From Escherichia phage vB_EcoP_G7C: a DNA stretch of 64,000 bases. The notes under the pieces were generated by a model. It did no database searches, had not been told where the DNA came from, and saw nothing but the letters and a program-made list of their open reading frames with translations. Shown here in pieces: positions 25,173-62,469 of this stretch (position 1 is the first letter of the stretch; each line of letters opens with the position of its first letter). The stretch is taken from sequence record NC_015933.1; one strand, given 5' to 3'. The position numbers and the translations under genes were made by a program.

Positions 25173-25207
25173 ACTCTCCCCAGTCCATTGGTTCAACCGA
25201 GGCTGAT

Positions 25208-25378
25208 ATGAACAAATTTACTATTCACTGGCTCAATGGAAAGGTTAGTTCTTTCATGGGTGGAGAACCTGCTGAAGGAAACAAAGCATTCCACATTGAT
25301 TCAGAAGGCTGCAAAATCTTAATACCTTATGCTTGGTATAAAGGTGGTGAAGTTGAAGCATTGAAAAAGAGTAGTTAA
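25208..25378 (+). CDS. Small hypothetical protein (56 aa)
   Basis: ATG with GAGG RBS; below the ORF-track size cut-off. Confidence 0.35.
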   Translation: MNKFTIHWLNGKVSSFMGGEPAEGNKAFHIDSEGCKILIPYAWYKGGEVEALKKSS

Positions 25379-26629: not shown

Positions 26630-26771
26630 ATGATTGACCTAATCTTAACCCCGTATGCCTATGAGGTAACGGATAACCGTGGACGTAAGTCTTTGGTATT
26701 TGCAGGTAGCGTAGCCTATAACAACGCAGTCATGTTTAAATACAAACTTAAACCACTCTATGAGGCTAATA

Positions 26772-26909
26772 ATGGAATTTGATGATTTAGATTTTGAAGC
26801 TATCGAAAGGGCGAACCAGGAGAAACTGGAACAGGCTAATCGTGAAGCTGAAGAGTTAGAAAACGCTAAAGGCAACAACGATTGCACGAGTGGTGGTTGC
26901 ACCATTTAG
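26772..26909 (+). CDS. Small acidic protein (45 aa)
   Basis: ATG with GAGG RBS; overlaps a weaker 50-aa ORF at 26630-26782. Confidence 0.3.
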   Translation: MEFDDLDFEAIERANQEKLEQANREAEELENAKGNNDCTSGGCTI

Positions 26910-26990
26910 CAAACAGGTATATGGTAGTTTTTACCGAAAGGTACTGAACTACCCGACATGTGGTAAGGCTCGAGAAGCCAAAACAAAATA

Positions 26991-27013
26991 AGCCCTCCTA
27001 GTGAGGGCTTTTC
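26991..27013 (+). terminator. Terminator-like hairpin
   Basis: Stem AGCCCTC/GAGGGCT followed by TTTT. Confidence 0.5.
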
Positions 27014-27033
27014 CATATCTGTAGGAAACTATT

Positions 27034-27264
27034 ATGACGCAAGTATCTATTACCTCTGTTGTTCGTGAAGCCATTCTCAACAATACTGTTCGTACATATT
27101 CGTTCGATGAAATCGCAGAGAAGCTAGGAGTAACCCGTTACGTGGCTAAGAAACTCTACTTCACTTTCCTGTGGTTCCCTACGGAAGAAACATTACGGAA
27201 GATTAAAGAAACTGGTAAATTTCCAAGTGAAGGACGCAAGCCTAAAATGTGGAAAACACCCTAG
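27034..27264 (+). CDS. Small HTH DNA-binding protein (76 aa)
   Basis: AGGAAA RBS 7 nt upstream; HTH-like YSFDEIAEKLGVTRYVAKKLY; bracketed by terminators. Confidence 0.5.
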   Translation: MTQVSITSVVREAILNNTVRTYSFDEIAEKLGVTRYVAKKLYFTFLWFPTEETLRKIKETGKFPSEGRKPKMWKTP

Positions 27265-27276
27265 CTTCTAAAAGCA

Positions 27277-27298
27277 AAGCCCCTCTTTTGAGGGGCTT
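27277..27298. terminator. Bidirectional rho-independent terminator between convergent units
   Basis: Perfect 9-bp stem AAGCCCCTC/GAGGGGCTT with TTTT loop, A-run upstream and T-run downstream. Confidence 0.75.
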
Positions 27299-27305
27299 TC
27301 TCATT

Positions 27306-30300
27306 TTAGTTTACTAAGTTCATCCAAGGGTTTAGGTTGTGAGCACGAAGCCCCTGACCAAAGCCCCATGAGTAATCCAGACTACCCTTAGCAGCAATAC
27401 TAAAGATGTTGTCCTGAATAGGTAAGCCAACGTTACCAAACATGGTAGGAGTTGGAGCCAGCATCGCCATTGCTGCATGTACTGGGTTATTGCGAATCAT
27501 GGACACTGCAACCTTAGCTGAACGAATCTTAAAGTTGTAGAACCACATTAAACCAACGCTTTCCATATACCCACGGAAACGGCCCGGCAGACGGTCATAG
27601 TTAATGAACTCTTCGGTTACACGTCCCAGTGCTTCTTCACGAGTCTTACCTTTACGCTGGGTCAATTCATCATAGATGATTGCTTTAGCGATAAAGTCAG
27701 AGTACTCAACCGTCTTCTGGATACCCTGGAACAGAGCAGTATCCTTAGTGATAAGTGCATAACGACCAGCAGCACGTACAGACTTAGGTAACTTATCCGC
27801 CAGCTTTTCCATGTATTCGTGAAGTTTACCTTCAGTAATCAGGATGTCATCACGACCAATACCAGCATCTGCAATTGAAGAGAACTCACCAGCTTCTATC
27901 AGAGGCCAGATACTCATACGCTTATGGCTATCAGTAATGGACTGAATCTCAGCCTTAAGTTTACGAATCTGGTTCGGGTTAGTAGCTGCACGTAATTCTG
28001 CTTCTGCATCTACCTGACGTAAACGAGATTTAAGGTATTGGTTAATCTCAGCAGTCTTCCGTGGAATGCTCTTAGCAATGTTCTTAACCGGTACACCACG
28101 AGCAACCATCTGGTAAAGGTTAGCCAAAAAGTTAACAACAGGTACGACTACTGACTTAACTACAATCAGAGTCTTAGCATCTTTAACTAAATTTTGAACC
28201 AGGTTCTCACCACCCATTAAGTACTTATAGGCACGGTTACCGGCTAAACCCAGAATAGCTTTTTTAAAAGTATTAAGCGTTTCCGGGGACCAACGAGAAT
28301 TACCAGACCAAGCATCACCAATCGAAGCTGCACGATAGCCAAGTGCATCATTCAGCATGTCACGACGTACCCACAGTTCACCCTCACCAAACAGTTTTTC
28401 TGCTTTCCGTCGAGTTTCACTGTTCATCAGCTTAAGAGCATCAGCAGTTACTGGGTCCAGTTTAGAACCAAAAAGGTTCACGTACTGGGACTTATTAGCA
28501 GCAGACATCTTAATGTCTTCCTTGTACATGCTATACAGGTTCTCAATCAGCATATCATTGAAACGCTGAGCCTTAGCTTCTTCCACCTGACGTCCACGCC
28601 ATACACCAATTGCACGGGCAAGATGATTTTCACCTTCAATATGCTTCAGCATATTAGGGTTAATTGATTGCTCATAAGCAACCACATCACCTTTAGCATT
28701 ATATACAGGCAGCAGTGGTTCATTACCACGTTCACCACGAGCTAGTGCTTTAGCGATACGGTCTACAGAAGGCTTGTCAGTAATACGACCAGCTACCATG
28801 GAACCCATAGTAAAGCCTGTACCGAGGTCTACACCACCAGCAGTATTACGAACGTTCTGTAGAATACCTTGTGAGAACGGAGCCTGTGCCTGTACTGGGG
28901 CAAAGTAGTAGCTACGTGCCAGACCTCGGTTAGCAGAGCTACCTTGATAAGTACCCAGACGAACATAGGACTTCTCTATCAAATCACCAAACTCGCTATC
29001 TTCAGCAACAACCAGACTAACACCCTGTTTAGTCTCACTAGGGATATACCCTTTGTACTGGTTCAGGGTTGCACGCATATCAGACTTGGCTTTAGCCATT
29101 TCATCTTTACGCTGCCCAACCAGGTAAGAAGTAGCAAAGTCCATTCCCTCAACTTCTGTCTGAGCCAGTGAAGATAACATCTCACGGTCGGACTTGTTCA
29201 TTGCTTCCAGTGCATACAGGGTAATAAGTTTATCCAGTTGAGCTACATCTACAATAGAACGAGTAGTCTTACGTTCACCCAGCATACGAGAGATTGCAGT
29301 AGCATTACGCAGCAAGTTTTTACCGACTGTGCCATTAATCATGTACTGAGCCAGTTGCTTAGATTTACGGTTAATCAGAGGCCAGTTACGACCAGCTTGT
29401 TTCTGCAAATCTGCTTCCAGCTTATTCACTTCACGGTCAACAATCTTCTGGTCTGAAAGCAGGTCACGAATTTCAGCCAGAGACATGGTGTCACGCAGGA
29501 CAGCTAAGTCAGTTTTACCCATACCAGTGTACATTGCTTTCCACTCATCCTTAGTCAGCTTACGGCTGAACTTAGATGCGATAGTGGTAGGCAGGTGTTC
29601 ACGGAACTGCTGACGGTCAGCCTGCACCTGTGCACGGACTGCTTTAATCAAATCGTATACAGAAGCATTGCTCTTAGTACGACCGGTTAAATCATTAACC
29701 AGGTCATGGAAAGGTTGCCATACTTTACCCTGGTTCATTGCAACCATAACGCCTTCAGCTACGTTTGCACCATTCTTCTCTGTAGCAATAGCAGCCATTA
29801 GTTGTGCAGCATGAGCAGCACCTTTGACCAATGGGTTCTTGGTATTAGCTGCAACTTCACGAGCACTTTCTAAAACACGAGTAGACAGTACATCAATAGA
29901 GTCCACCAAATACTGGTTAGCACGGTCAATAGCATTACCACTAGGAGTAGCAACGGAATCATAGAATGACTGTGCATTTAGGCTAGTCTGCATGATTGTT
30001 TGAGCCAGTGCATCCATACCTTCCTGTACGTTGGTAGCTTTGGTATCACCTGCTACACGAGCATTCAGACTAGCCATTGCAGCAGTACCAATGTTAGTCA
30101 GCATTGCATCAACGGTATTCCCAGATTTCTTATCTGCTTTCATAACAGGAATGTTAGCCAGTACGTTACGTACCTCTTCACTTACCATTGCCAGACCAAC
30201 AAAGGTAGGCAGTATTGAAGAACGACCCTGTGCATCAAACTCAATATTGTTAGCACCCATGATGGTATCGAACTTCTGCTGTGCATAGTAACGGTCAGCA

Positions 30301-33300
30301 GGGTTAGTACTATCTGGGTCAGTCATGAATGATTCAACAGTCAGGTTCTTAGTAACGTGTGCATAGTATTCCTGTGCACGAGAAAGAGCAGCCGGACTAA
30401 TAGCAGCTTCAGTAGCGAGTGCAGCAACAATGTTAGTAAAGAGACGCTGCTCCTGCATATTCATAGTGAAGCCATGAGCCTGAACATCACGGGTTACTTT
30501 AGTTGCGTGCTTTTTCGCATCAGAGAACTTACCTTCACGGATTACTTGCTGTACTGGTTCTGAACCAATGTAGTTAGTAATCAGCTTATCAAATGTCTGT
30601 CCTAACTCTTCCAGACGGGTATTGTCACCATATGCTTTGTTATGGAACAAAGTAGTATCTTTGGCTACAGCAGCAGTAGGAGCCTGCCCACGCATAACAA
30701 CTGAAGAGTTAAACAGTAAGCCAGAGAACATATCATCAGCATTAGCAGGTGCTTCTTCACGACCAAATACCAGTCGCTTGATTGCTTCATATACAGACTG
30801 AATCATAACTTTCAGTGCTGTGGTCTTCTTCTGCTTACTAATTAGCTCCTGGTTAGTTAAACCCCATGCCATGTACTCATTTAATGCAGCAGCTTTAGCT
30901 ATTGCTGGTTCAATATAGCCATTAGACAAGTAGCCGTTAATGGTATAGAGGGCATCGGCATATGCTTCACGTACTTCCGGAGATTCATCCTTAACATCCA
31001 GAGCAAGGAACTGGTTCATCAGGTCTTCGATATTCTGGACTGCTTCGTTAGGAGTACCCTCATAGTGAGCCAGTACAGATTCAAAAGTAGAAGCATGTAC
31101 CAATTCATGAACCAGAGTCTCTAAGGAAGGGGTGACTAAGTAGATGGTCTTATCATCAAAGTTAGTCCAGCCGTATGTATTACCTGCTTCGGCAGCTTCA
31201 ATATCTTCTGGTGCTGGACGGGTAATGTTCTTCTCAATAGCGTAAGCATCCAATTGAGCAGGAGTACCGTAAACAACCTTGTAGTCTTTAGCAGCAAGGG
31301 ATTTCTGTACTTCTTTCAATACTGCTTGCTGTTCAGGAGACATTTCTTTAGCCAGCTTAGTGATAGCAGTATTAGACAACAGACGTACACCAGACTTAAG
31401 TACACGACCAACTTGTTCCATTGCTGGCACTTCTTTAACAGGTGCTTCTTTCACTGGTTCTGCTTTAGCAGCACGTACTGCATCACGACGCTTGTTTAAT
31501 TCAGCATCGAACAGTTCGTTCAGCTTAGCTACTTGCTGGTCTACAGTCAGACCTTCCAGAGAAATTTTACCGTTGTTCACATATGGAGCACCTACAGCAG
31601 CCATCTGGTCAACAGTAGTCTGTACTTGGTTCATTACTTTGTGGCGAATATCTACACCCAGAGCAATGTTTCGCAAGTTACGCTCAATGAGGTTAACACC
31701 GGAATTCTTAATCATATCAATCTTATACTGCCTGTCCCCTTCAACACGACTGATATGAGAAAGCTGTTCAAAATCTAAAGCGGAACGGGCAATGTCATCA
31801 ATTGTCTTATCCGACAACTTATCAAAGTCTACGTTCTTCATGAACTTAGAGAAGGAGTCATACACGTTCTTAATAGGGTTGCCCTGCCAAGAAGTATATA
31901 CAGCCTCGTTAGCTTTACGACTTGCATCAGTGATGTCACTGATACCAATGTTCATACCATCAAAGATTTTCAGGGTATTCTTAGGAGCACCTTTCATAGT
32001 AGAAAGGGTCTGCATCATCATGCCATCACCAGTACCAATGGTCATAAACGGAATACCTGCAACACCTGCTTGTGAAGGAGCATAGATGCTCATTGGCACA
32101 CGCATACGGTCATCTAAGTTGGTAGCCAGTACTTGGTTAGCAACGTCAGTACTCTCACTGCCAGCAAGGTAGAAAGTCTGTGAGCCAGTCTCAATCATTG
32201 GGGCCAGTGGAGATAATGATTCCTGGATTTCATTCAGTTCTTTCTGTGTTAAGAAATCACCCTTCTTCCAGGTTGGGTCTTTTTCTTTTTCTGCTAGCTT
32301 AGTCTGTACTGCTTGTTGGAACATATCCTGCAATACCAGAGACTGAATCTGAGTAGCCTTCTGCAAGTTCTCAGTAGAGTACATCAGACCTTCACCAACA
32401 GTATTACGGATACCGGTACGCATTGGTTCAACGAACAAATGGAGCATGTTCTCTTGTAAGTTCTTCAGAGCATTACCGGATACGGTAAATTTCTGAGGGT
32501 TTAACTTACCAGTCAGAGCACCATCTACTTCCTTAATAAATAACTTACCTTTGCGCTTAGCTGGAATTTTACCAGTCAGTGCTTCCATAGAAGTAAGGAA
32601 AGTATCCAGCATAGCCTGAGCATCAGCCTCAGACGCAGCCTCCTTACCAAACATTGCCATAGCCGGGGAAATGCTAGGGTCAGCAGCACGTGCTTGCAGA
32701 ACGTCGCTGAAGCGTTCGTAGATGGTGTCAGTAATTGCACCGACTATATTACCAGCAATACCACGTGCACCAGCACCATAGATGGTAATGGTAAGCGGGT
32801 TTTTAGCGATACCACGTTTCAGGTCCAGAGTACCATCTTCATTCAGGTTAAAGTCTTTAATGAACAGGTCCATTAACTTCTGGAGATGATTTATCTGGTT
32901 TATAACTGGAACGTTGTTACGGTAAGTAGTACGTAACGCATTCAGTGCTTGTTGCAGACCATTGGTAGATGCTTCATACAAGTCAACATTATCGTCGATA
33001 GAACAATGTTCGTTCATCGTTTTACCAGCACGACCGAAGAACAAACCACCTTTGGCAGTATTCTTAATCCAGTCTGGGGTGAACTTACCACCAGTCATTA
33101 ATACCATTGCGTTGATTGGGCCGTTGGTTACACCATCAGCTTCAACGTACAGAGGGGTAGTAAAATTAGCACGGTCATCACTGTTCAGGTAACGGGCATA
33201 TTCCATCAGGGCCATGAGAGCTACGAAGGATTTGTTATCACCCAGAGAGGTTTTCAGAATATCTACTGCATCAGTAGGTAAATAACCAGACTTATCAAAC

Positions 33301-36300
33301 TCAACCATCATATCAACAGCAGGTTTCAAATTACCTTCCAGAGCTTTGGTCAGATTTTCAGACATAGCTTCACGGGACATTTTATGTACCTTGATGCCCA
33401 ATGCCTGAGCCAGACCTAACTGGAAGTCAGAGAATGCTTGGCTGTTTTCATTACTCAAGTCGATAGTGGAGAAGGTTGGCAGAATTGCTTCACGAACCAG
33501 TTTACTGGATTGTGGGTTATTCTTACCAAGCATCTGCATACGACCTACACGGGTCATGTTGTAACCGTAGTGAATGGGGGTATCCAAACCATTCTCTTGT
33601 TCTTTTAGCTGATTAATTAAACCGAACAAAGAATCATATGCCATAGATACCGATAAGTTCTTACCTTCCAGAGATTTGGCAGTGTTTTCATTCAGCAAAT
33701 CAGGATTAAGAGAACCAGCACCCATCAGTTCCAGAATGCCGTCTCGGCCTAATGCTTCATAGAAGTTAACCATCGGCATGTGTACACGGAACTCCGTAGC
33801 CTGTTCAGCTTTCAAAGCAGCTTTCTGTTCCGGGGTATTCCTAACAGCAGGGTTACGTAACTGAGTTTGAGCCACGGAAGGAATGTCATCACCGAAGTAC
33901 GTTTTCTCTTCCGGATTTACCAGCACAGCTTCCTCAATTGCTGTAGGGAAATTATTAATAGGGTCTTTATCTGCCAACTTATTAATAGTGTACAGACCAA
34001 TAGTCTTATTAGAGTCCGGGTCAATCTCAGACACATCCAGCATAGTCTCAGTAACTGCACCCATCTCGATGAGGGAAGACAGAATCTCTGTAGCCATTGC
34101 CGCTGGAATACCCTTGGTATAACCCAGTGGTGCATTAGGGTTACGGTTTAAACCCCAGTAGGATTCAATCTTTTGAGCCAGTGAGTTAGTAGCCTCAACC
34201 AGAGTCTGGGCATTCTCAAACTCAGTCAGAATACTTTCTGGTAACAGAGATGCATCTACACCAGTAATAGCAGCCACGTCTTTCATGTCTTTAATGGCAG
34301 CATTCTGTGTAGCAGTCAGTCGCCATTGCAGACCGGCAAGTACAGCAGTCTCTAACAACTGATCATTGAACTTAAAGGTATCTCCATCTTTCTCTACGAT
34401 GTTAAGTAACTTACCACTTACCCAACGGTTAGCTTCAGTACCTTCTGCAAAACGTTTACCAACGTTCTTATTAGCAAGGAACTTAGCCAGTCGTTTAGAC
34501 AGAGTAGCCTTCAGAGTTTCCCCAAAGTCCATCAAGTCTTGATAGCGTTCTAACACATCACCTGCGAGAACGTTATTTTCTTTTTGAGTGAATGCTTCAA
34601 AGCGAGCAGCAGAAGACAGTGCTTTCTTGATATCAGCCAAAGGAGATTCAGAACCAATGGTACGGGACTTAGGTTCTTCCGGTAGGGTAAATGCCTTCAG
34701 GAACTGGTTCGGTGTCTTCTCATTGTTATAGACAGGGAACACTGCTTCCATTCCAGAAAGAGGTTTGCCACCCACTGTATAGTCTGCTTTCAGCTGAGCC
34801 AGTGATACCTCATCTTCCTCCACGTTGTTAGTGTTAAGACCAGAGGTATCTACACCAACCAGAATATGTGCATTATTGGCTTCAACGAAAGATTGAACAG
34901 TATTGAATTGTTCAGCAGTCAGTTTCTGATCATCGAACAGCTGTAAGGACACAAACGGTTGTTCGCTGCCTTTATAGAACATAGAGCGAATAGCACCTGT
35001 ATCCAGAGACATATCACGATAACCATCATGACCAAATACATCGGACAGGCTGATATGGTCGCCATTAGAGCCAACCACAGTACCATCAGCAAACAGCCAT
35101 GGACTCTCTCTACGATCACCATACTTATTAAGAGTTTCCTGTGAAATAGTATTTTCTTTCACATAAGCATCTCTTTCAGATTCGGTAGGTTGCTCGATGG
35201 TATCCTCATTAGTAAGGGTAGCATCATCTACAACCGGGCTAGCCTTTTCAGACTTAGGTACTTTCTCTTCCTGTACAGGTGTAACTTCTGGCTGGGAGAA
35301 TGTATTACGTACATAGTTCATAAAATCATTACGTGCTTGGGAAGGGGAAGACCATACTTCCCGTGTGCTACGTAAACTAAAGATTCGACCTTCAGGAGTC
35401 ATTACGTAAGGTACATTTGTTTTACCGTACTTAAATGAAGTGAGTACATCTGACTTACCAGTAACAGTGCTTTCCCCTGGAATGACAATAGTCTTACCAC
35501 CAGTAGAAGGAACAGCACGAACACCCTCAATATCCTTACCAAGAGAAATATACTCTTTACCGTTGTAATCAAAGTACTGACCTATCTGCATATAGGTAGC
35601 TTGTTGCTTACCAGTAAACTCAGCAGTTTTCATCTCCGGGCCGTTAGGTACAGACGTACTTTCAGACTTAGGCTTAGATACTTTCTCTGGTTCTGACTTA
35701 GACTCTACAGTGTTAGGGGCAGTCTCTTTTGCTTCGACTGGTGCAGTTTTTGACTGTACAGTAATGGCTGGTTCCTGTGTTTTTACAGGTGTTTCATCAA
35801 CCTGATTCACTGGTTCATTAGTCTGTTGGGACTGAGTGGCATTAAGACCACCTTGACGGAACTCTTTAACTACCTGGGCAGCTGGCTTGTTCAGACGTGA
35901 ATCCAACGAGGTAACTTTCACATGAGAAACATTAAGCTCCGGGTAAGCCGTAGCAAGTGCATTAGCAATATCAGCTACGGTTTTGGCCTCCAGTGCTACT
36001 TGCTGGGCAAACTTAACAGACTTGGTATCATAAGGATTAACACCGAGGCCAGTACGACTACGTACCCATTCACGGGTAGGCGTGAGAGCCTGATAATGAA
36101 CAGACTTATTCTTATCCGCATTCCCCGAAATCAGATGCTCATTCAACGCTCCGACCTTATTCTGCATGTGCTGGGCGAACTTCATAAAATCGCTCAGATA
36201 AGCGGAAGCCAAATCGAAGTTACCAGAGTTATACGCAGAACGAATGCGTTTCGCATGTTGCAACGCAGAGTACTGTCCTTCATTAGAACGAGACTCGTCG

Positions 36301-38552
36301 GTTTTAATCTGTTTACTAACAATGTCTTGAGGACGTAAGCCCAGTTCTTCTGCTTTAGCATCATACTCACGTGCACCCTGTAACAGAGCAGCAGCTGATT
36401 GCAGGGCAGCACGTTGACGATTATTCAGTGTAATCTTACCTTCACTTGCGTGCTTCAGAACCATGTTCACTGAATCTGCATCCAGTACTTCTGGAGACAC
36501 ATCAGCAGCCATAGCAATGTTGTTTGCTTGGGCTTGATTAGCTTCTTCAGTAGCTTTCAGTTTACCTGCTTCAGCTTGTTCCTGAATCATGGAATGGATG
36601 GCACGGAATGCACGAAGTACTTTAGGGGTATTCTGTATGTTAGCCATCAGGCCGGAGAACTGGTCTACGATTGCAGCAGCAGGAGAACCTTGTTCCAGAT
36701 TAGCCAGAGCACCTGGGTCACGGTTAATGAAGCTATCCATAGACATGATGTTGTCATACATCTGGATTGCAGCTTCCATTTGAACGTCAGGGTCTTCAGC
36801 AGTATTAACCAAGTCAGCCATCTTCTGAATAGCTTCCACACGGTTAGTGGAACCAGAAACAGCTTCACGGATTACTGGGTTGGCTTGTTCCAATTCTACT
36901 GGGTCAAACTTCATTGCCTGAGTCAAGTCAGCAGCATACTGGGTAGCAGCAGCTTTCTCTTCTGGAGTGATATCCATTGCATCTACTGCTTCCTGTACGG
37001 TTGCCTGTGCTTGTTCTGCCTGAGCAACAGCTTCCTGTGCAGCAGCATTAACCGTAGCATCGGCTACAGGGGATGCTTGTTCATTACGCTTAGCAACTTC
37101 TTCCCCACGTTGAACCAGGATGTTAGTAAGAGGAGATGCAGCTTTTGCTAATGTTTTACCAACCAGAGAAGCACCAGCCAGAGTGGTACGAAGAGCAGGT
37201 CCAGCAGCAGCACCGGCAGCTTTAACAGTTGCACCAGGAGCCTGAGCAACACCAGCACTACCGAAGCCATAGAGTGCACCAAGACCCGCTTGCTCACCGA
37301 CACCTTTGAGGGTATCTCGGGATGCATCAACATTTTCCTTGATTGCACGGTTCTGTGCGAACTGACCAAAGCCTGATTGAGTACCCTCTTCAAAAGTCTG
37401 AGCACCAAGGTTAGTAAGAGCTGCCCCAGCAGAACCAACCCTCATGGGGTTAAGTTCAAACTTAGATACTAACGGACCCATAGCAGCAGCAACTGGGGCA
37501 GTTAAGGCAGCAGCAATGATACCCGTTTCAGATGCAGTCTGACGACGTGCTTCATCAGGAGATAAACCATCAGCAATATGTTGTTGGTAAACAGGAGACT
37601 TACTTGCCAGTTCTGGATGGGACATCTTCATGATTTCAGAAGCAGTCTGTTGGTATGCACCCCCGGCTTCCATGCCACCGATTGCAATAGCAGGTGCAGC
37701 AACACGACCAGTAGACAATGCAACCTGTGCAGGACGTGAACCCAACCCAGCAGCTAAGGTAATACCCTTAACAGCTTTATCACCACCTACCATTACTTTA
37801 CCGAGTGCAGATACACCACGAATAAGTGGACCACCAGTAAAGAGGGAACCGACACCCTCACTCAGTCCATCTGAGGCAGCCATACCATTATCAAGTGTGT
37901 TAGCAACAGAGTCGAAAGCATCACGACCAATACGAGACAGGGAGGCAACCAAATCACTCTCCCCGTTTTTGATGTCCTGTTCATAGAGTTTCTGGTTCTT
38001 TTGAGCAGAAATCTGGTTCTGATTCTGAACAACTTTACGGGTAGCATTCAGTGCATCAGACTGTAGATTGTGTACGCCTTCATTCAGCCAATCCATCCCG
38101 GAAGCAATGGTTGCCCCGGCATTATCATTGACCAGACCTGCGCCAAGAGCAGCAATGCCCCCAAGGGTATTAGCAACACCAAGACCAACACCAGAAAGAG
38201 TATCGCCAAATGCTTCTGCGTTAGTACGCTGTTTAGATAAGTCCTGACGTACAGCATCCGCAGCATTAGCTCGGCTATTAAGAATCTGTAAACCTTGCTC
38301 ATTACCGTACTTATTAATGATTTCTAATGGGGAGGCTTGAGTGAAGTCTGCCTGAAGTGAACCTGGTTCGAATGCACCGATTCCAAGATTACCTACTCGT
38401 CCAGTCTGGAGAGTGTAAGCATTCTCTGGGGTTAATTGGAAAGGGCTTTGCCCTTGTGCAGCTTGCTTCTGAGAGGTTGCAGTAGAGACATCGACTTGCT
38501 TAGCATTAGTGATGCTGTCTGCGAAACCTGCCAGACGGTCAAATGTTGACAT
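27306..38552 (-). CDS. Virion-encapsidated RNA polymerase (N4 vRNAP-like giant protein, about 3748 aa)
   Basis: Single 11.2-kb ORF; T7-like RNAP motifs in the central region: motif A YVEADGVTNGP, motif B KRGIAKNPLTITIYGAG, motif C KIFDGMNIG; ATG at 38552 has AGGAAA RBS (ORF-track TTG at 38570). Confidence 0.9.
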   Translation of the reverse strand: MSTFDRLAGFADSITNAKQVDVSTATSQKQAAQGQSPFQLTPENAYTLQTGRVGNLGIGAFEPGSLQADFTQASPLEIINKYGNEQGLQILNSRANAADAVRQDLSKQRTNAEAFGDTLSGVGLGVANTLGGIAALGAGLVNDNAGATIASGMDWLNEGVHNLQSDALNATRKVVQNQNQISAQKNQKLYEQDIKNGESDLVASLSRIGRDAFDSVANTLDNGMAASDGLSEGVGSLFTGGPLIRGVSALGKVMVGGDKAVKGITLAAGLGSRPAQVALSTGRVAAPAIAIGGMEAGGAYQQTASEIMKMSHPELASKSPVYQQHIADGLSPDEARRQTASETGIIAAALTAPVAAAMGPLVSKFELNPMRVGSAGAALTNLGAQTFEEGTQSGFGQFAQNRAIKENVDASRDTLKGVGEQAGLGALYGFGSAGVAQAPGATVKAAGAAAGPALRTTLAGASLVGKTLAKAASPLTNILVQRGEEVAKRNEQASPVADATVNAAAQEAVAQAEQAQATVQEAVDAMDITPEEKAAATQYAADLTQAMKFDPVELEQANPVIREAVSGSTNRVEAIQKMADLVNTAEDPDVQMEAAIQMYDNIMSMDSFINRDPGALANLEQGSPAAAIVDQFSGLMANIQNTPKVLRAFRAIHSMIQEQAEAGKLKATEEANQAQANNIAMAADVSPEVLDADSVNMVLKHASEGKITLNNRQRAALQSAAALLQGAREYDAKAEELGLRPQDIVSKQIKTDESRSNEGQYSALQHAKRIRSAYNSGNFDLASAYLSDFMKFAQHMQNKVGALNEHLISGNADKNKSVHYQALTPTREWVRSRTGLGVNPYDTKSVKFAQQVALEAKTVADIANALATAYPELNVSHVKVTSLDSRLNKPAAQVVKEFRQGGLNATQSQQTNEPVNQVDETPVKTQEPAITVQSKTAPVEAKETAPNTVESKSEPEKVSKPKSESTSVPNGPEMKTAEFTGKQQATYMQIGQYFDYNGKEYISLGKDIEGVRAVPSTGGKTIVIPGESTVTGKSDVLTSFKYGKTNVPYVMTPEGRIFSLRSTREVWSSPSQARNDFMNYVRNTFSQPEVTPVQEEKVPKSEKASPVVDDATLTNEDTIEQPTESERDAYVKENTISQETLNKYGDRRESPWLFADGTVVGSNGDHISLSDVFGHDGYRDMSLDTGAIRSMFYKGSEQPFVSLQLFDDQKLTAEQFNTVQSFVEANNAHILVGVDTSGLNTNNVEEDEVSLAQLKADYTVGGKPLSGMEAVFPVYNNEKTPNQFLKAFTLPEEPKSRTIGSESPLADIKKALSSAARFEAFTQKENNVLAGDVLERYQDLMDFGETLKATLSKRLAKFLANKNVGKRFAEGTEANRWVSGKLLNIVEKDGDTFKFNDQLLETAVLAGLQWRLTATQNAAIKDMKDVAAITGVDASLLPESILTEFENAQTLVEATNSLAQKIESYWGLNRNPNAPLGYTKGIPAAMATEILSSLIEMGAVTETMLDVSEIDPDSNKTIGLYTINKLADKDPINNFPTAIEEAVLVNPEEKTYFGDDIPSVAQTQLRNPAVRNTPEQKAALKAEQATEFRVHMPMVNFYEALGRDGILELMGAGSLNPDLLNENTAKSLEGKNLSVSMAYDSLFGLINQLKEQENGLDTPIHYGYNMTRVGRMQMLGKNNPQSSKLVREAILPTFSTIDLSNENSQAFSDFQLGLAQALGIKVHKMSREAMSENLTKALEGNLKPAVDMMVEFDKSGYLPTDAVDILKTSLGDNKSFVALMALMEYARYLNSDDRANFTTPLYVEADGVTNGPINAMVLMTGGKFTPDWIKNTAKGGLFFGRAGKTMNEHCSIDDNVDLYEASTNGLQQALNALRTTYRNNVPVINQINHLQKLMDLFIKDFNLNEDGTLDLKRGIAKNPLTITIYGAGARGIAGNIVGAITDTIYERFSDVLQARAADPSISPAMAMFGKEAASEADAQAMLDTFLTSMEALTGKIPAKRKGKLFIKEVDGALTGKLNPQKFTVSGNALKNLQENMLHLFVEPMRTGIRNTVGEGLMYSTENLQKATQIQSLVLQDMFQQAVQTKLAEKEKDPTWKKGDFLTQKELNEIQESLSPLAPMIETGSQTFYLAGSESTDVANQVLATNLDDRMRVPMSIYAPSQAGVAGIPFMTIGTGDGMMMQTLSTMKGAPKNTLKIFDGMNIGISDITDASRKANEAVYTSWQGNPIKNVYDSFSKFMKNVDFDKLSDKTIDDIARSALDFEQLSHISRVEGDRQYKIDMIKNSGVNLIERNLRNIALGVDIRHKVMNQVQTTVDQMAAVGAPYVNNGKISLEGLTVDQQVAKLNELFDAELNKRRDAVRAAKAEPVKEAPVKEVPAMEQVGRVLKSGVRLLSNTAITKLAKEMSPEQQAVLKEVQKSLAAKDYKVVYGTPAQLDAYAIEKNITRPAPEDIEAAEAGNTYGWTNFDDKTIYLVTPSLETLVHELVHASTFESVLAHYEGTPNEAVQNIEDLMNQFLALDVKDESPEVREAYADALYTINGYLSNGYIEPAIAKAAALNEYMAWGLTNQELISKQKKTTALKVMIQSVYEAIKRLVFGREEAPANADDMFSGLLFNSSVVMRGQAPTAAVAKDTTLFHNKAYGDNTRLEELGQTFDKLITNYIGSEPVQQVIREGKFSDAKKHATKVTRDVQAHGFTMNMQEQRLFTNIVAALATEAAISPAALSRAQEYYAHVTKNLTVESFMTDPDSTNPADRYYAQQKFDTIMGANNIEFDAQGRSSILPTFVGLAMVSEEVRNVLANIPVMKADKKSGNTVDAMLTNIGTAAMASLNARVAGDTKATNVQEGMDALAQTIMQTSLNAQSFYDSVATPSGNAIDRANQYLVDSIDVLSTRVLESAREVAANTKNPLVKGAAHAAQLMAAIATEKNGANVAEGVMVAMNQGKVWQPFHDLVNDLTGRTKSNASVYDLIKAVRAQVQADRQQFREHLPTTIASKFSRKLTKDEWKAMYTGMGKTDLAVLRDTMSLAEIRDLLSDQKIVDREVNKLEADLQKQAGRNWPLINRKSKQLAQYMINGTVGKNLLRNATAISRMLGERKTTRSIVDVAQLDKLITLYALEAMNKSDREMLSSLAQTEVEGMDFATSYLVGQRKDEMAKAKSDMRATLNQYKGYIPSETKQGVSLVVAEDSEFGDLIEKSYVRLGTYQGSSANRGLARSYYFAPVQAQAPFSQGILQNVRNTAGGVDLGTGFTMGSMVAGRITDKPSVDRIAKALARGERGNEPLLPVYNAKGDVVAYEQSINPNMLKHIEGENHLARAIGVWRGRQVEEAKAQRFNDMLIENLYSMYKEDIKMSAANKSQYVNLFGSKLDPVTADALKLMNSETRRKAEKLFGEGELWVRRDMLNDALGYRAASIGDAWSGNSRWSPETLNTFKKAILGLAGNRAYKYLMGGENLVQNLVKDAKTLIVVKSVVVPVVNFLANLYQMVARGVPVKNIAKSIPRKTAEINQYLKSRLRQVDAEAELRAATNPNQIRKLKAEIQSITDSHKRMSIWPLIEAGEFSSIADAGIGRDDILITEGKLHEYMEKLADKLPKSVRAAGRYALITKDTALFQGIQKTVEYSDFIAKAIIYDELTQRKGKTREEALGRVTEEFINYDRLPGRFRGYMESVGLMWFYNFKIRSAKVAVSMIRNNPVHAAMAMLAPTPTMFGNVGLPIQDNIFSIAAKGSLDYSWGFGQGLRAHNLNPWMNLVN

Positions 38553-38625
38553 AGCATGTTTCCTGTTCAAACTTATATCGTATATAGGTAACTTACTCTA
38601 CAGTAAGCCAGTTAAAGAAAAAAGC

Positions 38626-38650
38626 CCCGTAGGGCTTTTATTAGTATTAC
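38626..38650. terminator. Bidirectional terminator-like hairpin upstream of the vRNAP gene
   Basis: Stem AGCCC/GGGCT flanked by A-run and T-run. Confidence 0.5.
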
Positions 38651-40611
38651 CGATTTTGTCTGGGTTGCATATACTCAGGCAGTCCTTGTGCCTGACGTAA
38701 GTACCGTGCAGCACGTTCTTCATCTTCCTTGGCTCGTGCCCTGTCCACACTAGCCTGTGACCGAAAACCTCTTGGAGCCAGGTTAGCTGGGTCAGCCTGT
38801 ACTTGTGCCTGTGCAGCTTGGAGCATTGCAGCAGCTTTAGTAACAGCCTCCTGTCGTGCAGGTAACAGTGCAGTAAGACCAGTTTGCCCGGTGTTAATCT
38901 TATTCTGGGTATTTGCCAGTGCAGCTACAGCAGCATCATACGCAGTCTGTGCTGCCTGAATATTCTGCATAGCTTGAGCACGACCTAGGTTACGAACACT
39001 ACCTTCCAGTGGTTCTCCACGTTTCACACCCTCAATTAACTGTTCTACCTGACGGTCATTAAGACGCATACCATTACCGGCTTCATTGGTAATGAATGGG
39101 TTAACTGCATCAATAGCACGGCTAATATAACCTTCCGGTACACCGGTCTGTGCACGTTGCATAACAGCAGCAGCCATAGCAGGTGACATATTCCCACGTT
39201 GGGAAATATCGTTCAGTCGGTTCAGTACCCAGTTACGGTCAGCACCTTTAAAATCACCTTCCAACAGACGGTTAGCAATCTCACCTACTGGGGTATTATC
39301 AGTGACAGTACCGAGGAAGTCTGTGTTAAGACTACCGGTGTTATCCTGCATGGAACGTGTACCAATCATACCCTGAGCCAGAGTAGATACTGCCTGATTA
39401 CCTTGATTATTCTGAACCATAGCTAGTGGGTCAGCCCCTACTTCAGCTTGGGCAATAACAGGTTTAATCTCTTCCCATGTCATATCCTTATAAGCACCTG
39501 GGGTAGAGTTAGGCAGAGCAGCCCAAGTATCTTTAAGGTTACCGTTCTTACGAGCCTCGAAGATAGCCTTACCAATCTTATCCTGGTTCTCAGGAGAAAG
39601 GGGCTGGCTTTGCCAATCTGAACCAAGAACTTTAGGAGCGAAGTCTTTCAGGGTAGCTTGGTTAATCTGGAATGCTCCAACAGGTGAAGCACCCTGATTC
39701 GACTTCATACCATCCTGGTGTTTAATTACATCACCAATACTCATTTGAGTAATAGGAGTAGATGTACCAGCAAACTGGTAGGTAACATCGTAAGGGGAAC
39801 CCTGACGTGTACCAGCAGTACCCGGAGCAGACGTAGCACCAACATTGTTACCGTAAACACCCGGGTATGCTCGTGCAAGCATTTCCTGCAAACGTGCCTG
39901 GGCAACCGGAGACAGGTTCTTACTATATGCTTCTGCCAATAGACGGGCATCATTAGGGTTCTCAGCACCACGGGTAATCTGTGACATTACACCCATAGCT
40001 GCCTGACTATCGGCATCATTACGCTGAGCAACACCTAAATCAAAACGGTTCTGTGCCTGATTAATAGCCTGACCACTTTGGCCTTGAAGACGGCTCAGCA
40101 TGTCCAATTGCTGGTCAGCAGGGAGTGCAGACAATGCATCACGGGTCTGACTTAATGCAGCATTAATACGGTTCTGGTCACCTGACTGGTATGCCTCAGA
40201 CAGTAAACGGATAGCAGGGGAAGCATTATCTAATGCAGTGTTAGTATCCTGTAAACGACCAAAGCGATACGCATTGTAGTCATTGGTTCCCTGCTGACCT
40301 TGTTGAGTCAACAGTGTACCTGCTCTCTCATCCAGGTTTTGAAGGGTACGCTGGTTTATCAATGAACGGTCAACCCCCTGAAATAATGCACCAGATGCCA
40401 AAGCATTACGGTACTCAGTAGGGTCTTGGTACTGCATAGCATTCATCATGACGGCATTGCCAGCCTCCTGCTTGGCAGCGTTCTGGAAATTACCCAGTGC
40501 ATCACTTAAGCCGGAGGTGGCGTTACCAATCATGCTGCCAAATGTGCGAATGCTGTCACCAACTCCAGAAAAGTTAGGTGCATCAACATTACGCCATGTA
40601 ATTTGAGCCAT
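38647..40611 (-). CDS. Virion internal/structural protein, Q/N/A-rich
   Basis: 654-aa ORF with TAGGAAACC RBS; Gln/Asn/Ala-rich composition; directly upstream of vRNAP in the late operon. Confidence 0.7.
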   Translation of the reverse strand: MAQITWRNVDAPNFSGVGDSIRTFGSMIGNATSGLSDALGNFQNAAKQEAGNAVMMNAMQYQDPTEYRNALASGALFQGVDRSLINQRTLQNLDERAGTLLTQQGQQGTNDYNAYRFGRLQDTNTALDNASPAIRLLSEAYQSGDQNRINAALSQTRDALSALPADQQLDMLSRLQGQSGQAINQAQNRFDLGVAQRNDADSQAAMGVMSQITRGAENPNDARLLAEAYSKNLSPVAQARLQEMLARAYPGVYGNNVGATSAPGTAGTRQGSPYDVTYQFAGTSTPITQMSIGDVIKHQDGMKSNQGASPVGAFQINQATLKDFAPKVLGSDWQSQPLSPENQDKIGKAIFEARKNGNLKDTWAALPNSTPGAYKDMTWEEIKPVIAQAEVGADPLAMVQNNQGNQAVSTLAQGMIGTRSMQDNTGSLNTDFLGTVTDNTPVGEIANRLLEGDFKGADRNWVLNRLNDISQRGNMSPAMAAAVMQRAQTGVPEGYISRAIDAVNPFITNEAGNGMRLNDRQVEQLIEGVKRGEPLEGSVRNLGRAQAMQNIQAAQTAYDAAVAALANTQNKINTGQTGLTALLPARQEAVTKAAAMLQAAQAQVQADPANLAPRGFRSQASVDRARAKEDEERAARYLRQAQGLPEYMQPRQNR

Positions 40612-40623
40612 GATGGTTTCCTA

Positions 40624-41085
40624 TTAACGAGTAAGTTTATTAGCTGCAATGTAAGCATCAGCTGAAGACTGGTCACGGTTCTCTGCTGTAGCACGGCTAC
40701 GAGCACGGTCTTCCAGTGCAGTGTTATAAGACTTAATCTGATTATTCAGGTTAGTGTTAGTAACGCTCTTAGCAAAGTTCAACTGGTTTTTGGCTAACTT
40801 GTTAGCCTGGAAACCACCATAGATATTGGCTAAGGAACCAAGTGCATCAAGTCCTAGTTGGAAGGTAGGAATATTCATGCCTAATTGGTCAGTCAAGCCT
40901 GAATCATTACCTGAGCCAAACAAAGAACTATCCAAACTACCATTTAAAAAATCCATGCCAACTGTTTGTCCGGGCCGATAATTCATTGCCGGAGTACTAA
41001 AGTTTTGCTTCTGGTTGTTACCAGATAACCAGGACAAAGCCCCTGGCTGAAGGGTTTGGTTGCCTGTAAAGAATGACAAATCCAT
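40624..41085 (-). CDS. Virion protein (hypothetical)
   Basis: ATG at 41085 with AGGAGA RBS (ORF-track TTG at 41106). Confidence 0.6.
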   Translation of the reverse strand: MDLSFFTGNQTLQPGALSWLSGNNQKQNFSTPAMNYRPGQTVGMDFLNGSLDSSLFGSGNDSGLTDQLGMNIPTFQLGLDALGSLANIYGGFQANKLAKNQLNFAKSVTNTNLNNQIKSYNTALEDRARSRATAENRDQSSADAYIAANKLTR

Positions 41086-41098
41086 GGGGATTCTCCTG

Positions 41099-61124: not shown

Positions 61125-61295
61125 ACTTATCTCTCTACAAAGTTATGTCTATTAACGAAGATTCTTTTCTTGGGGTGAGATACCCCTTGAAGAAACTCTA
61201 ACACACAGTTACACTTTAGTCATGATATAGAAAAAGTTCATGATACTAAATAGTATGTAATGTTCCGATGACCCTATTCCCAAAAGGAGTAACCT
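61125..61295. promoter_or_regulatory. Divergent intergenic region likely carrying promoters for the minus-strand late operon and plus-strand small genes
   Basis: 170-bp AT-rich gap between divergently oriented ORFs; direct repeat TCATGATA x2; -10-like TATGTAAT. Confidence 0.3.
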
Positions 61296-61586: not shown

Positions 61587-61735
61587 TTAGTCATACCGCC
61601 TAGTAGACAGTGGCGGTACTCGTAAAGAGTTAATAACTTCTACAGTCAGGGTTCCCCGGCTCCTTTCCTACTCCGTAGGTCTAACGGTACATAAGTACCT
61701 AGGGGGGTGAACTGACCCGTGATTGAAAACGGTAA

Positions 61736-61771: not shown

Positions 61772-61787
61772 CTGGAGGCATGCAATT

Positions 61788-62466: not shown

Positions 62467-62469
62467 GGT

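What the first reader, a model, noticed from the sequence alone, without database searches (positions are those of the whole stretch)
27306..38552. Giant virion RNA polymerase gene occupying 11.2 kb
A single ORF of about 3748 aa carries T7-like single-subunit RNAP motifs A, B and C in its central part. Only the N4-like giant virion RNA polymerase has this combination. The product is longer than the roughly 3500 aa I recall for N4 itself, so the flanking N- and C-terminal regions may contain lineage-specific insertions. A bidirectional terminator hairpin (38626-38650) sits upstream, suggesting the gene is transcribed separately from the preceding virion gene.
Basis: partly seen in the sequence, partly recalled or inferred. 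Interest (0 to 1): 0.5.

Follow-up and report, generated by a model that had tools for sequence, protein, structure and literature searches.

The report
Phage G7C giant virion RNA polymerase
This 11.2-kb gene is the already annotated, virion-packaged giant RNA polymerase of the N4-like coliphage G7C. Its roughly 250 extra residues over N4 are two small domains inserted in the flexible tether between the membrane-anchoring part and the polymerase part, which is a modest curiosity and not a new kind of system.

Summary
One minus-strand ORF (27306-38552, ATG at 38552) encodes 3748 aa. The product is identical to GenBank YP_004782180.1, "virion RNA polymerase" of Escherichia phage vB_EcoP_G7C. It aligns end to end with full-length N4 vRNAP (PDB 11gp/9pnq, E=0). 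Identity to N4 is 61% in the N-terminal domain, 69% in the polymerase domain and 68% in the C-terminal domain. All catalytic residues are kept: R1671, D1806, K1917, Y1925, D2198.

The extra length lies neither in the N-terminal nor in the C-terminal domain. It lies in the N4 "low-complexity linker" (N4 residues 907-1006), which here spans aa 902-1265 and holds two folded modules.
- **Module A (aa 971-1088)** was found elsewhere only in the vRNAP of Shigella phage B2, a different subfamily. It sits at the same site at 75% identity, while the rest of the two proteins share about 25%.
- **Module B (aa 1139-1258)** occurs in about half of the related Gamaleyavirus vRNAPs. It also occurs in giant "polyvalent" injected proteins of other phages and plasmids. 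It has no Pfam family and no confident structural relative.

Both modules are under purifying selection; their function is unknown. The upstream hairpin is real (38620-38639) and conserved down to N4, but separate transcription is unproven. The gene is already known, so interest is low.

The parts
27306..38552 (-). Complete vRNAP (gp50) coding sequence, 3748 aa plus the stop codon at 27306-27308.
   Evidence: define the ORF. It is identical to YP_004782180.1 of phage G7C and matches N4 vRNAP at E=0.
35850..38552 (-). N-terminal domain (aa 1-901), homologous to the N4 N-terminal domain, which is reported to bind membrane and act in ejection.
   Evidence: It is 61% identical to N4 residues 1-906. 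The role of the N4 domain is taken from PMC13434306.
34758..35849 (-). Expanded linker between the N-terminal domain and the polymerase domain (aa 902-1265). Low-complexity segments rich in Pro, Glu, Lys, Thr, Ser and Gln flank two folded inserts. N4 has only about 100 aa here.
   Evidence: map the indels, one search gives the composition, and one search gives the N4 linker as residues 907-1006.
35289..35642 (-). Module A (aa 971-1088), a basic (pI 9.2), cysteine-free domain predicted to be beta-rich with one C-terminal helix. It is an orphan domain.
   Evidence: It is absent from E20, Bas96, APEC7 and N4. The only relative found is in the Shigella phage B2 vRNAP at the same position, at 75% aa and 76.6% nt identity. 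dN/dS is 0.12. It has no family match.
34779..35138 (-). Module B (aa 1139-1258), an acidic alpha/beta domain with the invariant pattern SPWL..DG..GDH...R...Q. It belongs to an undescribed family found in polyvalent injected proteins.
31470..34757 (-). T7-like single-subunit RNA polymerase domain (aa 1266-2361), equivalent to N4 mini-vRNAP.
   Evidence: It matches 3q0a, 3c2p and 2po4 at E=0 and about 1650 bits. Pfam vRNAP_dom_2, vRNAP_plug, N4_RNAP_helical and vRNAP_dom all hit. It is 69% identical to N4.
33135..33137 (-). Motif A catalytic Asp, D1806, equivalent to N4 mini-vRNAP D559.
   Evidence: The list of catalytic residues is quoted in PMC2784036.
31959..31961 (-). Motif C catalytic Asp, D2198, equivalent to N4 mini-vRNAP D951.
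27309..31412 (-). C-terminal domain (aa 2381-3748), homologous to the N4 C-terminal domain, which autoinhibits the polymerase and is required for encapsidation.
   Evidence: It is 68% identical to N4 residues 2124-3500. The roles in N4 come from PMC13434306, PMC13492108 and PMC4496689.
31095..31109 (-). HELVH (HExxH) motif at aa 2482-2486, in the region predicted to be a zincin-like metallopeptidase.
   Evidence: locate the motif. The metallopeptidase prediction for N4-like vRNAPs is from Iyer et al. 2017, PMC5512222.
38620..38639 (.). Hairpin between the gp51 homologue and the vRNAP gene, with the features of a bidirectional intrinsic terminator.
   Evidence: It is conserved in E20, Bas96, APEC7 and N4 and is annotated as a terminator in PhAPEC7.
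27276..27299 (.). Hairpin AAAGCCCCTC-TTTT-GAGGGGCTTT, 7 nt past the vRNAP stop, where the minus-strand late genes converge with plus-strand genes.
   Evidence: Terminators are annotated on both strands at the same place in PhAPEC7 and SP5M.
38647..41106 (-). Context: the homologues of N4 gp51 (654 aa) and gp52 (160 aa) lie immediately upstream. In N4 these are the other two ejection proteins.
   Evidence: Searches give the ORFs. The roles come from PMC13434306.

Best explanation
The ORF is gene 50 of the N4-like coliphage vB_EcoP_G7C (Gamaleyavirus, Schitoviridae). It encodes the virion-encapsidated RNA polymerase.

By homology with N4, a few copies are packaged in the capsid and expelled ahead of the DNA together with gp51 and gp52. 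The N-terminal domain anchors the protein at the inner membrane and ejection channel. The central T7-like polymerase domain transcribes the early genes from the incoming DNA. The C-terminal domain autoinhibits the polymerase until promoter DNA binds, and it is needed for packaging.

Shown here: the identity of the protein, the domain order, conservation of all catalytic residues, and gene order.

The protein is 248 aa longer than N4 because the flexible tether between the N-terminal domain and the polymerase has grown from about 100 to about 364 aa. It has taken in two small (about 120 aa), cysteine-free, independently folded modules separated by low-complexity spacers.

Inferred: the tether is a permissive slot where domain cassettes are gained and lost by recombination between co-infecting phages. 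Modules A and B are extra 'beads on the string' that travel into the cell with the polymerase and end up in the cytoplasm next to the DNA entry site. My best guess (about 55-60%) is that at least module B is a cargo or effector domain, in the sense of the polyvalent proteins, that acts on a host or nucleic-acid target early in infection. Its activity is unknown.
For: **Identity.** The sequence matches G7C YP_004782180.1 exactly. Full-length N4 vRNAP structures match at E=0 in two collinear stretches. PHROG 2206 matches over aa 25-3747. Four N4-specific Pfam domains hit. R1671, K1917, Y1925, D1806 and D2198 align with N4 R424, K670, Y678, D559 and D951. The HExxH motif is at aa 2482. The gp52-gp51-gp50 gene order matches N4. 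The nearest genomes are Gamaleyaviruses at 87-93% nt identity.

**Location of the extra length.** All indels of 10 aa or more relative to N4 fall at aa 962-1265. The N4 linker is residues 907-1006 and is unresolved and flexible.

**Modularity.** E20 and Bas96 have module B but not A; APEC7 and N4 have neither. Module B is in 27 of the phage records. Module A was found only in Shigella phage B2 (Humphriesvirinae), at the same position and at 75% identity, against about 25% for the rest of the protein. B2's own closest relatives, at 95% aa identity, lack it.

**The modules are real domains.** dN/dS is 0.12 for A and 0.09 for B, against 0.105 for the polymerase domain. Module B models at pLDDT 94.

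**Link to polyvalent proteins.** Module B homologues at 29-68% identity sit in proteins of 1169-3675 aa that also carry SLT, ResIII/helicase, methyltransferase, ddrB-ParB, LPD22/38/39, InPase or TrwC relaxase domains. Two of these lie in late or virion gene regions of temperate phages. One homologue is a stand-alone 166-aa protein. N4-like vRNAPs are already classed as polyvalent proteins with variable add-on domains.

**Packaging.** The B2 vRNAP, which carries module A, was detected in purified virions by mass spectrometry.
Against: Nothing argues against the identity.

The effector reading of the modules has several weaknesses.
- No catalytic or binding function could be assigned.
- Module A could not be modelled (pLDDT 36 from a single sequence) and has only one known relative.
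- N4 and many Gamaleyaviruses do without both modules, so they are dispensable for core vRNAP function.

The rarity of module A is measured on collections that evidently lack G7C itself (one search finds no match above the 90-95% identity band). The protein databases represent the G7C vRNAP cluster only by a 334-aa fragment. The null results are therefore weak evidence.

The window does not appear to contain the early hairpin promoters, so promoter specificity was not examined.
Confidence: 0.95

Rival explanations
1. Modules A and B have no activity of their own. They are passive spacer domains that lengthen or stiffen the tether between the membrane-anchored N-terminal domain and the polymerase.
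For: Both lie inside a linker that in N4 is pure low-complexity sequence. Both are dispensable in relatives. No enzymatic fold was recognised.
Against: Module B keeps eight invariant, mostly polar residues (S, P, L, G, D, H, R, Q) across 18 proteins that share only 25-68% identity. It recurs in unrelated polyvalent proteins and as a stand-alone 166-aa protein, which would not be expected of a spacer. Both modules evolve under purifying selection as strong as that on the polymerase domain. Module A was kept at 75% identity in two phages whose vRNAPs otherwise share about 25%.
Confidence: 0.35
2. The extra segments are selfish elements (inteins or homing-endonuclease insertions) or an assembly artefact, and are not part of the mature protein.
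For: G7C-type phages do carry mobile insertions (a group I intron and an intron-like element) in other essential polymerase genes, g16 and g39. A likely HNH-type ORF lies at 24675-25172 (recognised from its sequence only).
Against: The frame is uninterrupted. No HN[C/S/T] intein junction occurs in aa 900-1300, and the modules contain no cysteine. No intein or endonuclease family matches. The inserts sit in a disordered linker, not in a conserved catalytic motif. Module B is present in 27 independently sequenced phage records and module A in an independent isolate at the same site. The sequence is identical to the GenBank G7C protein.
Confidence: 0.02
3. The upstream hairpin is an attenuator or RNA-stabilising element within one late gp52-gp51-gp50 transcript, not the boundary of a separate transcription unit. 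Partial termination there would lower vRNAP expression relative to gp51.
For: The consensus scan found no sigma-70-type promoter between the hairpin and the ATG. The stem is short (8 bp, 4 G-C pairs). vRNAP is needed in only about 4 copies per virion in N4, whereas the periplasmic tunnel built by gp51 is decameric.
Against: A TATAAG element and the surrounding GATATAAGTTTG are conserved from G7C-type phages to N4, 24-29 nt upstream of the ATG, while flanking bases diverge. N4 late promoters depend on the N4SSB activator, so a weak -35 would be expected and the consensus scan could miss such a promoter.
Confidence: 0.45

Closest known systems
Escherichia phage N4 gp50, virion RNA polymerase (YP_950528.1; PDB 2po4, 3c2p, 3q0a for mini-vRNAP; 9pnq, 11gp for full length)
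   Same: The order of N-terminal domain, linker, polymerase domain and C-terminal domain is the same, and identity is 61%, 69% and 68% in the three domains. All catalytic residues, the N4-specific plug and helical modules and the HExxH motif are shared. The upstream gp52-gp51 genes and the upstream hairpin are also shared.
   Different: The linker is about 364 aa instead of about 100 aa and holds two folded modules that N4 lacks. There is one cysteine (C1850), whereas N4 has none.
vRNAPs of other Gamaleyaviruses (E20, Bas96, PhAPEC5, pSb-1, St11Ph5; PhAPEC7, SP5M)
   Same: They share 93-94% aa identity outside the linker and the same genome position.
   Different: They fall into two length classes: about 3600 aa with module B only, and about 3450 aa with neither module. 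None of those in the collection carries module A.
Shigella phage B2 gp30 vRNAP (Ithacavirus, Humphriesvirinae; 3741 aa)
   Same: It has module A at the same position (aa 966-1083) inside the same kind of low-complexity linker, at 75% aa identity. The protein is present in virions by mass spectrometry.
   Different: The rest of the protein is only about 25-28% identical. It has no module B, and its closest relatives lack module A.
Polyvalent proteins of phages and conjugative elements (Iyer et al. 2017), including N4-like vRNAPs fused to ART, lysozyme or PBECR domains, and DarB-like giant injected proteins
   Same: They are giant multidomain proteins delivered with the invading DNA, with shuffled accessory domains. 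Module B is shared with such proteins, which carry SLT, helicase, methyltransferase, ParB, LPD22/38/39 and relaxase domains.
   Different: Neither module matches any Pfam LPD, PBECR or other family. Use of the linker between the N-terminal domain and the polymerase as the insertion site is not mentioned in the papers I could read.
T7 RNA polymerase and other single-subunit RNAPs
   Same: The palm, fingers and thumb core and motifs T/DxxGR, A, B and C are shared.
   Different: The polymerase is embedded in a 3748-aa virion protein, and it is expected to recognise hairpin-form promoters on single-stranded template, as N4 vRNAP does (not tested here).

Membership tests
N4-type virion RNA polymerase (Schitoviridae gp50, PHROG 2206) | A single giant polypeptide (about 2800-3800 aa) with a central T7-like single-subunit RNAP domain. 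| tested here: met
   It is 3748 aa, within the published range of 2842-3820 aa. Mini-vRNAP structures match aa 1265-2362 at E=0.
N4-type virion RNA polymerase (Schitoviridae gp50, PHROG 2206) | Motifs T/DxxGR, A, B and C with the catalytic residues R424, D559, K670, Y678 and D951 (mini-vRNAP numbering). | tested here: met
   R1671, D1806, K1917, Y1925 and D2198 are all conserved in the alignment with N4. The residue list is from PMC2784036.
N4-type virion RNA polymerase (Schitoviridae gp50, PHROG 2206) | N4-specific structural modules (plug insertion, helical domain) and homologous N- and C-terminal domains. | tested here: met
   Pfam vRNAP_plug, N4_RNAP_helical, vRNAP_dom and vRNAP_dom_2 all hit. 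Residues 1-965 and 1257-3747 align with N4 1-969 and 998-3499.
N4-type virion RNA polymerase (Schitoviridae gp50, PHROG 2206) | The gene lies in the late virion operon next to the genes for ejection proteins gp51 and gp52. | tested here: met
   ORFs of 654 aa and 160 aa lie directly upstream on the same strand. They are annotated as gp51-like in relatives, and the order is the same in N4.
N4-type virion RNA polymerase (Schitoviridae gp50, PHROG 2206) | No cysteine residues, a property noted for N4 and the roseophage vRNAPs. | tested here: not met
   There is one Cys in 3748 aa (C1850, TGT). N4, E20, APEC7 and B2 have none. This is a descriptive property and not a strict criterion, so it does not affect membership.
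N4-type virion RNA polymerase (Schitoviridae gp50, PHROG 2206) | Packaged in the virion, injected, and able to transcribe early genes from hairpin promoters in a rifampicin-resistant manner. | not testable with these tools
   This needs experiments. The window does not appear to include the left-end early promoter region. Supporting evidence from relatives only: the B2 vRNAP was found in virions by mass spectrometry, and N4 has been studied biochemically.
Polyvalent proteins (Iyer et al. 2017) | A large multidomain protein delivered with invading DNA, sharing shuffled domains with other such proteins; N4-like RNAP fused to an HExxH metallopeptidase-like region. | tested here: met
   HELVH is at aa 2482. 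Module B is shared with proteins carrying SLT, helicase, methyltransferase, ParB, LPD and relaxase domains. Peptidase activity was not tested.
Intein or homing-endonuclease insertion (considered for modules A and B) | A Cys/Ser/Thr nucleophile at the N-terminal junction, a His-Asn plus Cys/Ser/Thr C-terminal junction, Hint or endonuclease motifs, and insertion in a conserved site of the host protein. | tested here: not met
   There is no HN[CST] in aa 900-1300 and no Cys in the modules. No Pfam, PHROG or NCBIfam hit was found. The inserts lie in a low-complexity linker.
PD-(D/E)xK / endonuclease-like fold (considered for module B) | An alpha-beta-beta-beta-alpha-beta core with conserved acidic and Lys residues on strands 2 and 3, and a significant structural match. 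| tested here: inconclusive

The most novel reading that the evidence does not exclude
The tether between the N-terminal domain and the polymerase domain of schitovirus vRNAPs may be a dedicated cargo slot. On this reading, small cysteine-free domains that can pass the roughly 22-30 Å ejection channel are swapped in and out by recombination between co-infecting phages, even across subfamilies (G7C and B2). Modules A and B would be injected effectors that act at the DNA entry site before any phage gene is expressed. Module B would be a new small enzyme or binding family, for example anti-restriction or anti-defence, shared with DarB-like polyvalent proteins. Module A would be an orphan effector specific to Escherichia/Shigella hosts.
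Probability: 0.25. Interest if true: 0.55.

Novelty: already known. Interest (0 to 1): 0.2.

Why it matters
As a gene call it adds nothing: it is the annotated vRNAP of the type Gamaleyavirus. The useful by-product is a natural series of otherwise near-identical vRNAPs with 0, 1 or 2 folded domains in the tether that the 2026 N4 cryo-EM papers describe as a disordered 100-residue linker.

That series bears on two open questions. The first is how a roughly 400-kDa protein threads through a channel about 22-30 Å wide ('beads on a string'). The second is whether vRNAPs carry pre-made effectors into the cell. Module B also marks an uncatalogued, well-folding domain family (about 120 aa) of polyvalent injected proteins. 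It could be tested directly for anti-defence activity.

Tried and rejected
- **Word-indexed protein searches** with module A and module B returned nothing. This is uninformative, because the G7C vRNAP cluster is represented in that database by a 334-aa fragment.
- **Single-sequence AlphaFold2** of the whole insert region failed (pLDDT 36).
- **Module A searches** found only phage B2. I tried Pfam at E<=10, PHROGs and NCBIfam, E. coli genomes, and IMG/VR, JGI metagenomes and GTDB genomes by peptide patterns. The one IMG/VR hit (L007) is a chance 15-aa match inside a protein whose sequence shows a GGGH motif typical of DHH/DHHA1 phosphoesterases (read by eye, no family search run).
- **A weak resemblance of module A** aa 22-61 to single FG-GAP-type propeller blades (6-14 bits per repeat, significant only when summed over repeats) is treated as a lead, not as homology.
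- **Intein, assembly-artefact and internal-duplication explanations** were rejected.
- **N4-type early hairpin promoters:** one repeat scan of 61000-64000 showed nothing that I recognised as such. I dropped this line because the early region seems to lie outside the window.
- **Alignment A1** was too divergent to seed a locus scan. The closer alignment A5 recovered only Gamaleyavirus contigs.
Full report
**1. The observation**

The window holds one very long minus-strand ORF, listed as 27306..38570 from the first TTG. The in-frame ATG at 38552 follows AGGAAA and gives MSTFDRLAGFADS.... This aligns with residue 1 of N4 vRNAP, so the product is 3748 aa with its stop at 27306-27308.

**2. What it is**

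An exact-sequence look-up shows the protein is identical to AEL79661.1 / YP_004782180.1, "virion RNA polymerase [Escherichia phage vB_EcoP_G7C]", from a 72,917-bp record. The window is therefore phage G7C, the type Gamaleyavirus. Independent evidence agrees.
- The 2025-26 full-length N4 vRNAP structures (11gp, 9pnq and others; 3500 aa) match at E=0 in two collinear stretches: query 1-965 with N4 1-969, and query 1257-3747 with N4 998-3499. The mini-vRNAP crystal structures match aa 1265-2362 at about 1650 bits.
- Pfam finds N4_RNAP_helical, vRNAP_dom, vRNAP_dom_2 and vRNAP_plug.
- PHROG 2206 "virion RNA polymerase" covers aa 25-3747.
- The nearest genomes in the phage collection are Gamaleyaviruses at 87-93% nt identity. 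G7C itself is evidently not in that collection.

In a pairwise alignment with N4 gp50, the catalytic residues listed for N4 (R424, K670, Y678, D559, D951; quoted in PMC2784036) are all conserved, as R1671, K1917, Y1925, D1806 and D2198. Identity to N4 is 61% in the N-terminal domain, 69% in the polymerase domain and 68% in the C-terminal domain. The HExxH motif that Iyer et al. assign to a zincin-like peptidase region of N4-like vRNAPs is present as HELVH at aa 2482. The gp51 and gp52 homologues lie directly upstream, as in N4. The length is within the published range for vRNAPs of 2842-3820 aa.

**3. Where the extra length is**

Every indel of 10 aa or more relative to N4 falls between aa 962 and 1265. 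This is inside the segment that in N4 (residues 907-1006) is a roughly 100-aa low-complexity linker between the N-terminal domain and the polymerase. That linker is unresolved by cryo-EM and is proposed to tether the polymerase to the membrane-bound N-terminal domain (PMC13434306, PMC13492108). Here the linker spans aa 902-1265.

Alignment with three close relatives resolves two independent inserts.
- Module A (core aa 971-1088) is absent from E20, Bas96, PhAPEC7 and N4.
- Module B (core aa 1139-1258) is present in E20 and Bas96 but absent from PhAPEC7 and N4.

The segments between them are rich in Pro, Glu, Lys, Thr, Ser and Gln.

**4. Module A**

tblastn against 50,697 phage records finds a single relative, the vRNAP (gp30) of Shigella phage B2. 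B2 belongs to another subfamily (Humphriesvirinae, Ithacavirus). The module sits at the same place there (aa 966-1083), within the same kind of linker, at 75% aa and 76.6% nt identity. The rest of the two proteins share only 25-28%. B2's nearest relatives, such as FSL SP-058 at 95% aa identity, lack about 146 aa there. Module A is therefore an insertion in both lineages, which is best explained by horizontal exchange of a domain cassette between schitoviruses of Escherichia/Shigella.

Between G7C and B2, dN/dS is 0.12 (dS 1.2), so module A is a selected protein domain. It is basic (pI 9.2), has no cysteine, and is predicted at low confidence to be beta-rich with a C-terminal helix. It matches no Pfam, PHROG or NCBIfam family. 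Nothing was found in E. coli genomes, IMG/VR, JGI metagenomes or GTDB genomes by the pattern scans. The B2 vRNAP is present in purified virions by mass spectrometry (PMC11654681).

A caveat applies. The collections appear to lack G7C and perhaps its closest kin, and the clustered protein databases represent this protein only by a fragment. "Only one relative" is therefore a lower bound.

**5. Module B**

Module B occurs in 27 phage records, all Gamaleyavirus vRNAPs, and in 6 IMG/VR contigs of the same type. An exhaustive HMMER search of 1.84 billion cluster representatives gave 20 hits to this module. Most are very large proteins whose other domains are typical of polyvalent injected proteins.
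- P0003 (3675 aa, 60% identity in the module) carries SLT, ResIII/helicase, methyltransferase and LPD39 domains.
- P0004 (3253 aa, 57% identity) carries methyltransferase, ddrB-ParB and LPD39 domains.
- Others carry LPD38, LPD22, InPase or a TrwC relaxase.
- A Vibrio plasmid protein annotated as LPD7 domain-containing also matches.

P0003 and P0004 lie in the late or virion regions of temperate phages, next to tail-fibre, lysis, integrase and P22-type Ant/Arc genes. P0012 is a distant vRNAP (23-27% identity overall) that carries module B (37% identity) directly in front of its polymerase domain. P0011 is a stand-alone 166-aa version.

Eighteen sequences align with invariant S, P, L, G, D, H, R and Q residues, in the pattern SPWL..DG...GDH...TGAIR...Q.LT. 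All are acidic. With this alignment AlphaFold2 gives a confident alpha/beta model (pLDDT 94, pTM 0.88).

**6. How it most likely works**

*Shown:* the identity of the protein, its domain order, its catalytic residues, the position and modular distribution of the inserts, their purifying selection, and module B's membership of the polyvalent-protein domain pool.

*From established N4 work:* about four copies are packaged. The protein is ejected with gp51 and gp52. The N-terminal domain associates with the membrane and channel. The polymerase transcribes early genes and helps pull in the DNA. The C-terminal domain autoinhibits the polymerase.

*Inferred:* the tether tolerates, and repeatedly acquires, small domains of about 13 kDa that can pass as extra beads on the string. 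Once the N-terminal domain is anchored, these domains would sit in the cytoplasm beside the DNA entry site. I favour a cargo or effector role for module B at least (about 55-60%) over a purely passive spacer (about 35%). The reasons are its conserved polar residues, its stand-alone form and its recurrence in other injected giants. No activity can be named.

Inteins, homing elements and artefacts are excluded.

**7. The hairpin and transcription**

The hairpin lies at 38620-38639 (8-bp stem, TACG loop, with an A-run and a T-run on either side). It begins 8 nt after the stop of the gp51 homologue. It is identical in E20, Bas96 and PhAPEC7 and almost identical in N4, and ARNold calls it a terminator in PhAPEC7. 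A second hairpin of the same kind follows the vRNAP stop at 27276-27299.

Between the upstream hairpin and the ATG the consensus scan finds no promoter. However, GATATAAGTTTG is conserved down to N4 while neighbouring bases diverge. Because N4 late promoters depend on an activator, a late promoter with TATAAG as its -10 element is plausible but unproven. Read-through attenuation is an equally viable reading.

**8. Comparison, novelty and verdict**

The gene is a bona fide, already annotated member of the N4-type vRNAP family. The idea that vRNAPs are polyvalent proteins with variable add-on domains dates from 2017. In the papers I could read, I did not find three things described:
- that the add-ons in G7C-type phages occupy the linker between the N-terminal domain and the polymerase;
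- that one of them has been exchanged with a Humphriesvirinae phage;
- that the other belongs to an uncatalogued polyvalent-protein domain family.

These are modest, descriptive additions. Novelty: already known. Interest: 0.2.

Noticed in passing
window 33003-33005 (aa 1850 of the vRNAP): The G7C vRNAP has exactly one cysteine (TGT) in 3748 residues. N4, E20, PhAPEC7 and B2 vRNAPs have none; N4 has Arg and E20 has His (CAT) at this site. The absence of cysteine has been proposed to matter for passage into the host (PMC2784036).
   Followed up: partly
window 38576-38587, minus strand (about 24-35 nt upstream of the vRNAP ATG): GATATAAGTTTG, which contains a TATAAG -10-like hexamer, is conserved between G7C-type phages and N4, while the sequence between it and the hairpin diverges. 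It may be an N4SSB-dependent late promoter. The consensus scan did not call it.
   Followed up: partly
window 25400-26600: This stretch of about 1.2 kb has no ORF longer than about 85 aa, no tRNA (ARAGORN) and no Rfam family at gathering score. It is 90-95% conserved in pieces among Gamaleyaviruses. Relatives (SP5M, E20, F22, Moonfish, APEC7) annotate a tRNA-Ile here. In the window most of that tRNA is missing: the SP5M segment that holds it is replaced by about 118 unrelated bases at about 26203-26320.
   Followed up: partly
window 25920-25945 and 25988-26010: Two motifs that resemble a tRNA T-arm (GGGGTTCGATTCCCTCC and GTGGTTCGATTCCATCCC) lie about 68 nt apart in the non-coding stretch. ARAGORN and Rfam do not call a tRNA there. 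They may be tRNA remnants or tRNA-like elements.
   Followed up: no
window 24675-25172 (+): This 165-aa ORF has a sequence (…EVDHINGIPTDCRLINMRLVSHMINCRNRR… followed by an AP2-like TGATGVYRQW… stretch) that looks like an HNH plus AP2 homing endonuclease. I recognised it by eye only and ran no family search.
   Followed up: no
window 25173-27305 compared with relatives (L014, L015): The region between the middle genes and the vRNAP stop is a mosaic. In Mimir124, Moonfish and 24-32N it carries ORFs annotated as anti-CRISPR or Thoeris anti-defence 2-like proteins. G7C has a different, shorter gene set here, for example the 76-aa ORF at 27034-27264.
   Followed up: no
vRNAP aa 992-1031 (window about 35460-35579): Part of module A (QYFDYNGKEYISLGKDIEGVRAVPSTGGKTIVIPGESTV) resembles single repeats of FG-GAP_2-type propeller proteins with Por secretion tails (P0021, P0022). 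Each repeat scores only 6-14 bits, and the match is significant only when summed over repeats.
   Followed up: partly
L008 6001-6501 (metagenome contig, protein P0011): A stand-alone 166-aa homologue of module B lies between a DNA_pol_B_exo2 gene and a ParB_N/HTH_ParB gene, just upstream of a Prok_Ub / E2 / JAB / ThiF cassette. The setting resembles a mobile element or phage.
   Followed up: no
databases: G7C itself is missing from the 'phages' collection: the best match to its own vRNAP gene is about 93%. In the clustered protein collection, the cluster holding the G7C vRNAP is represented by a 334-aa fragment. This explains why the word-indexed searches with modules A and B returned nothing.
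   Followed up: yes
Shigella phage pSb-1 record (H24/H25): The pSb-1 vRNAP is annotated as three adjacent ORFs in GenBank. PMC10654107 also notes this. It is probably due to sequencing or gene-calling errors and not a truly split gene.
   Followed up: no
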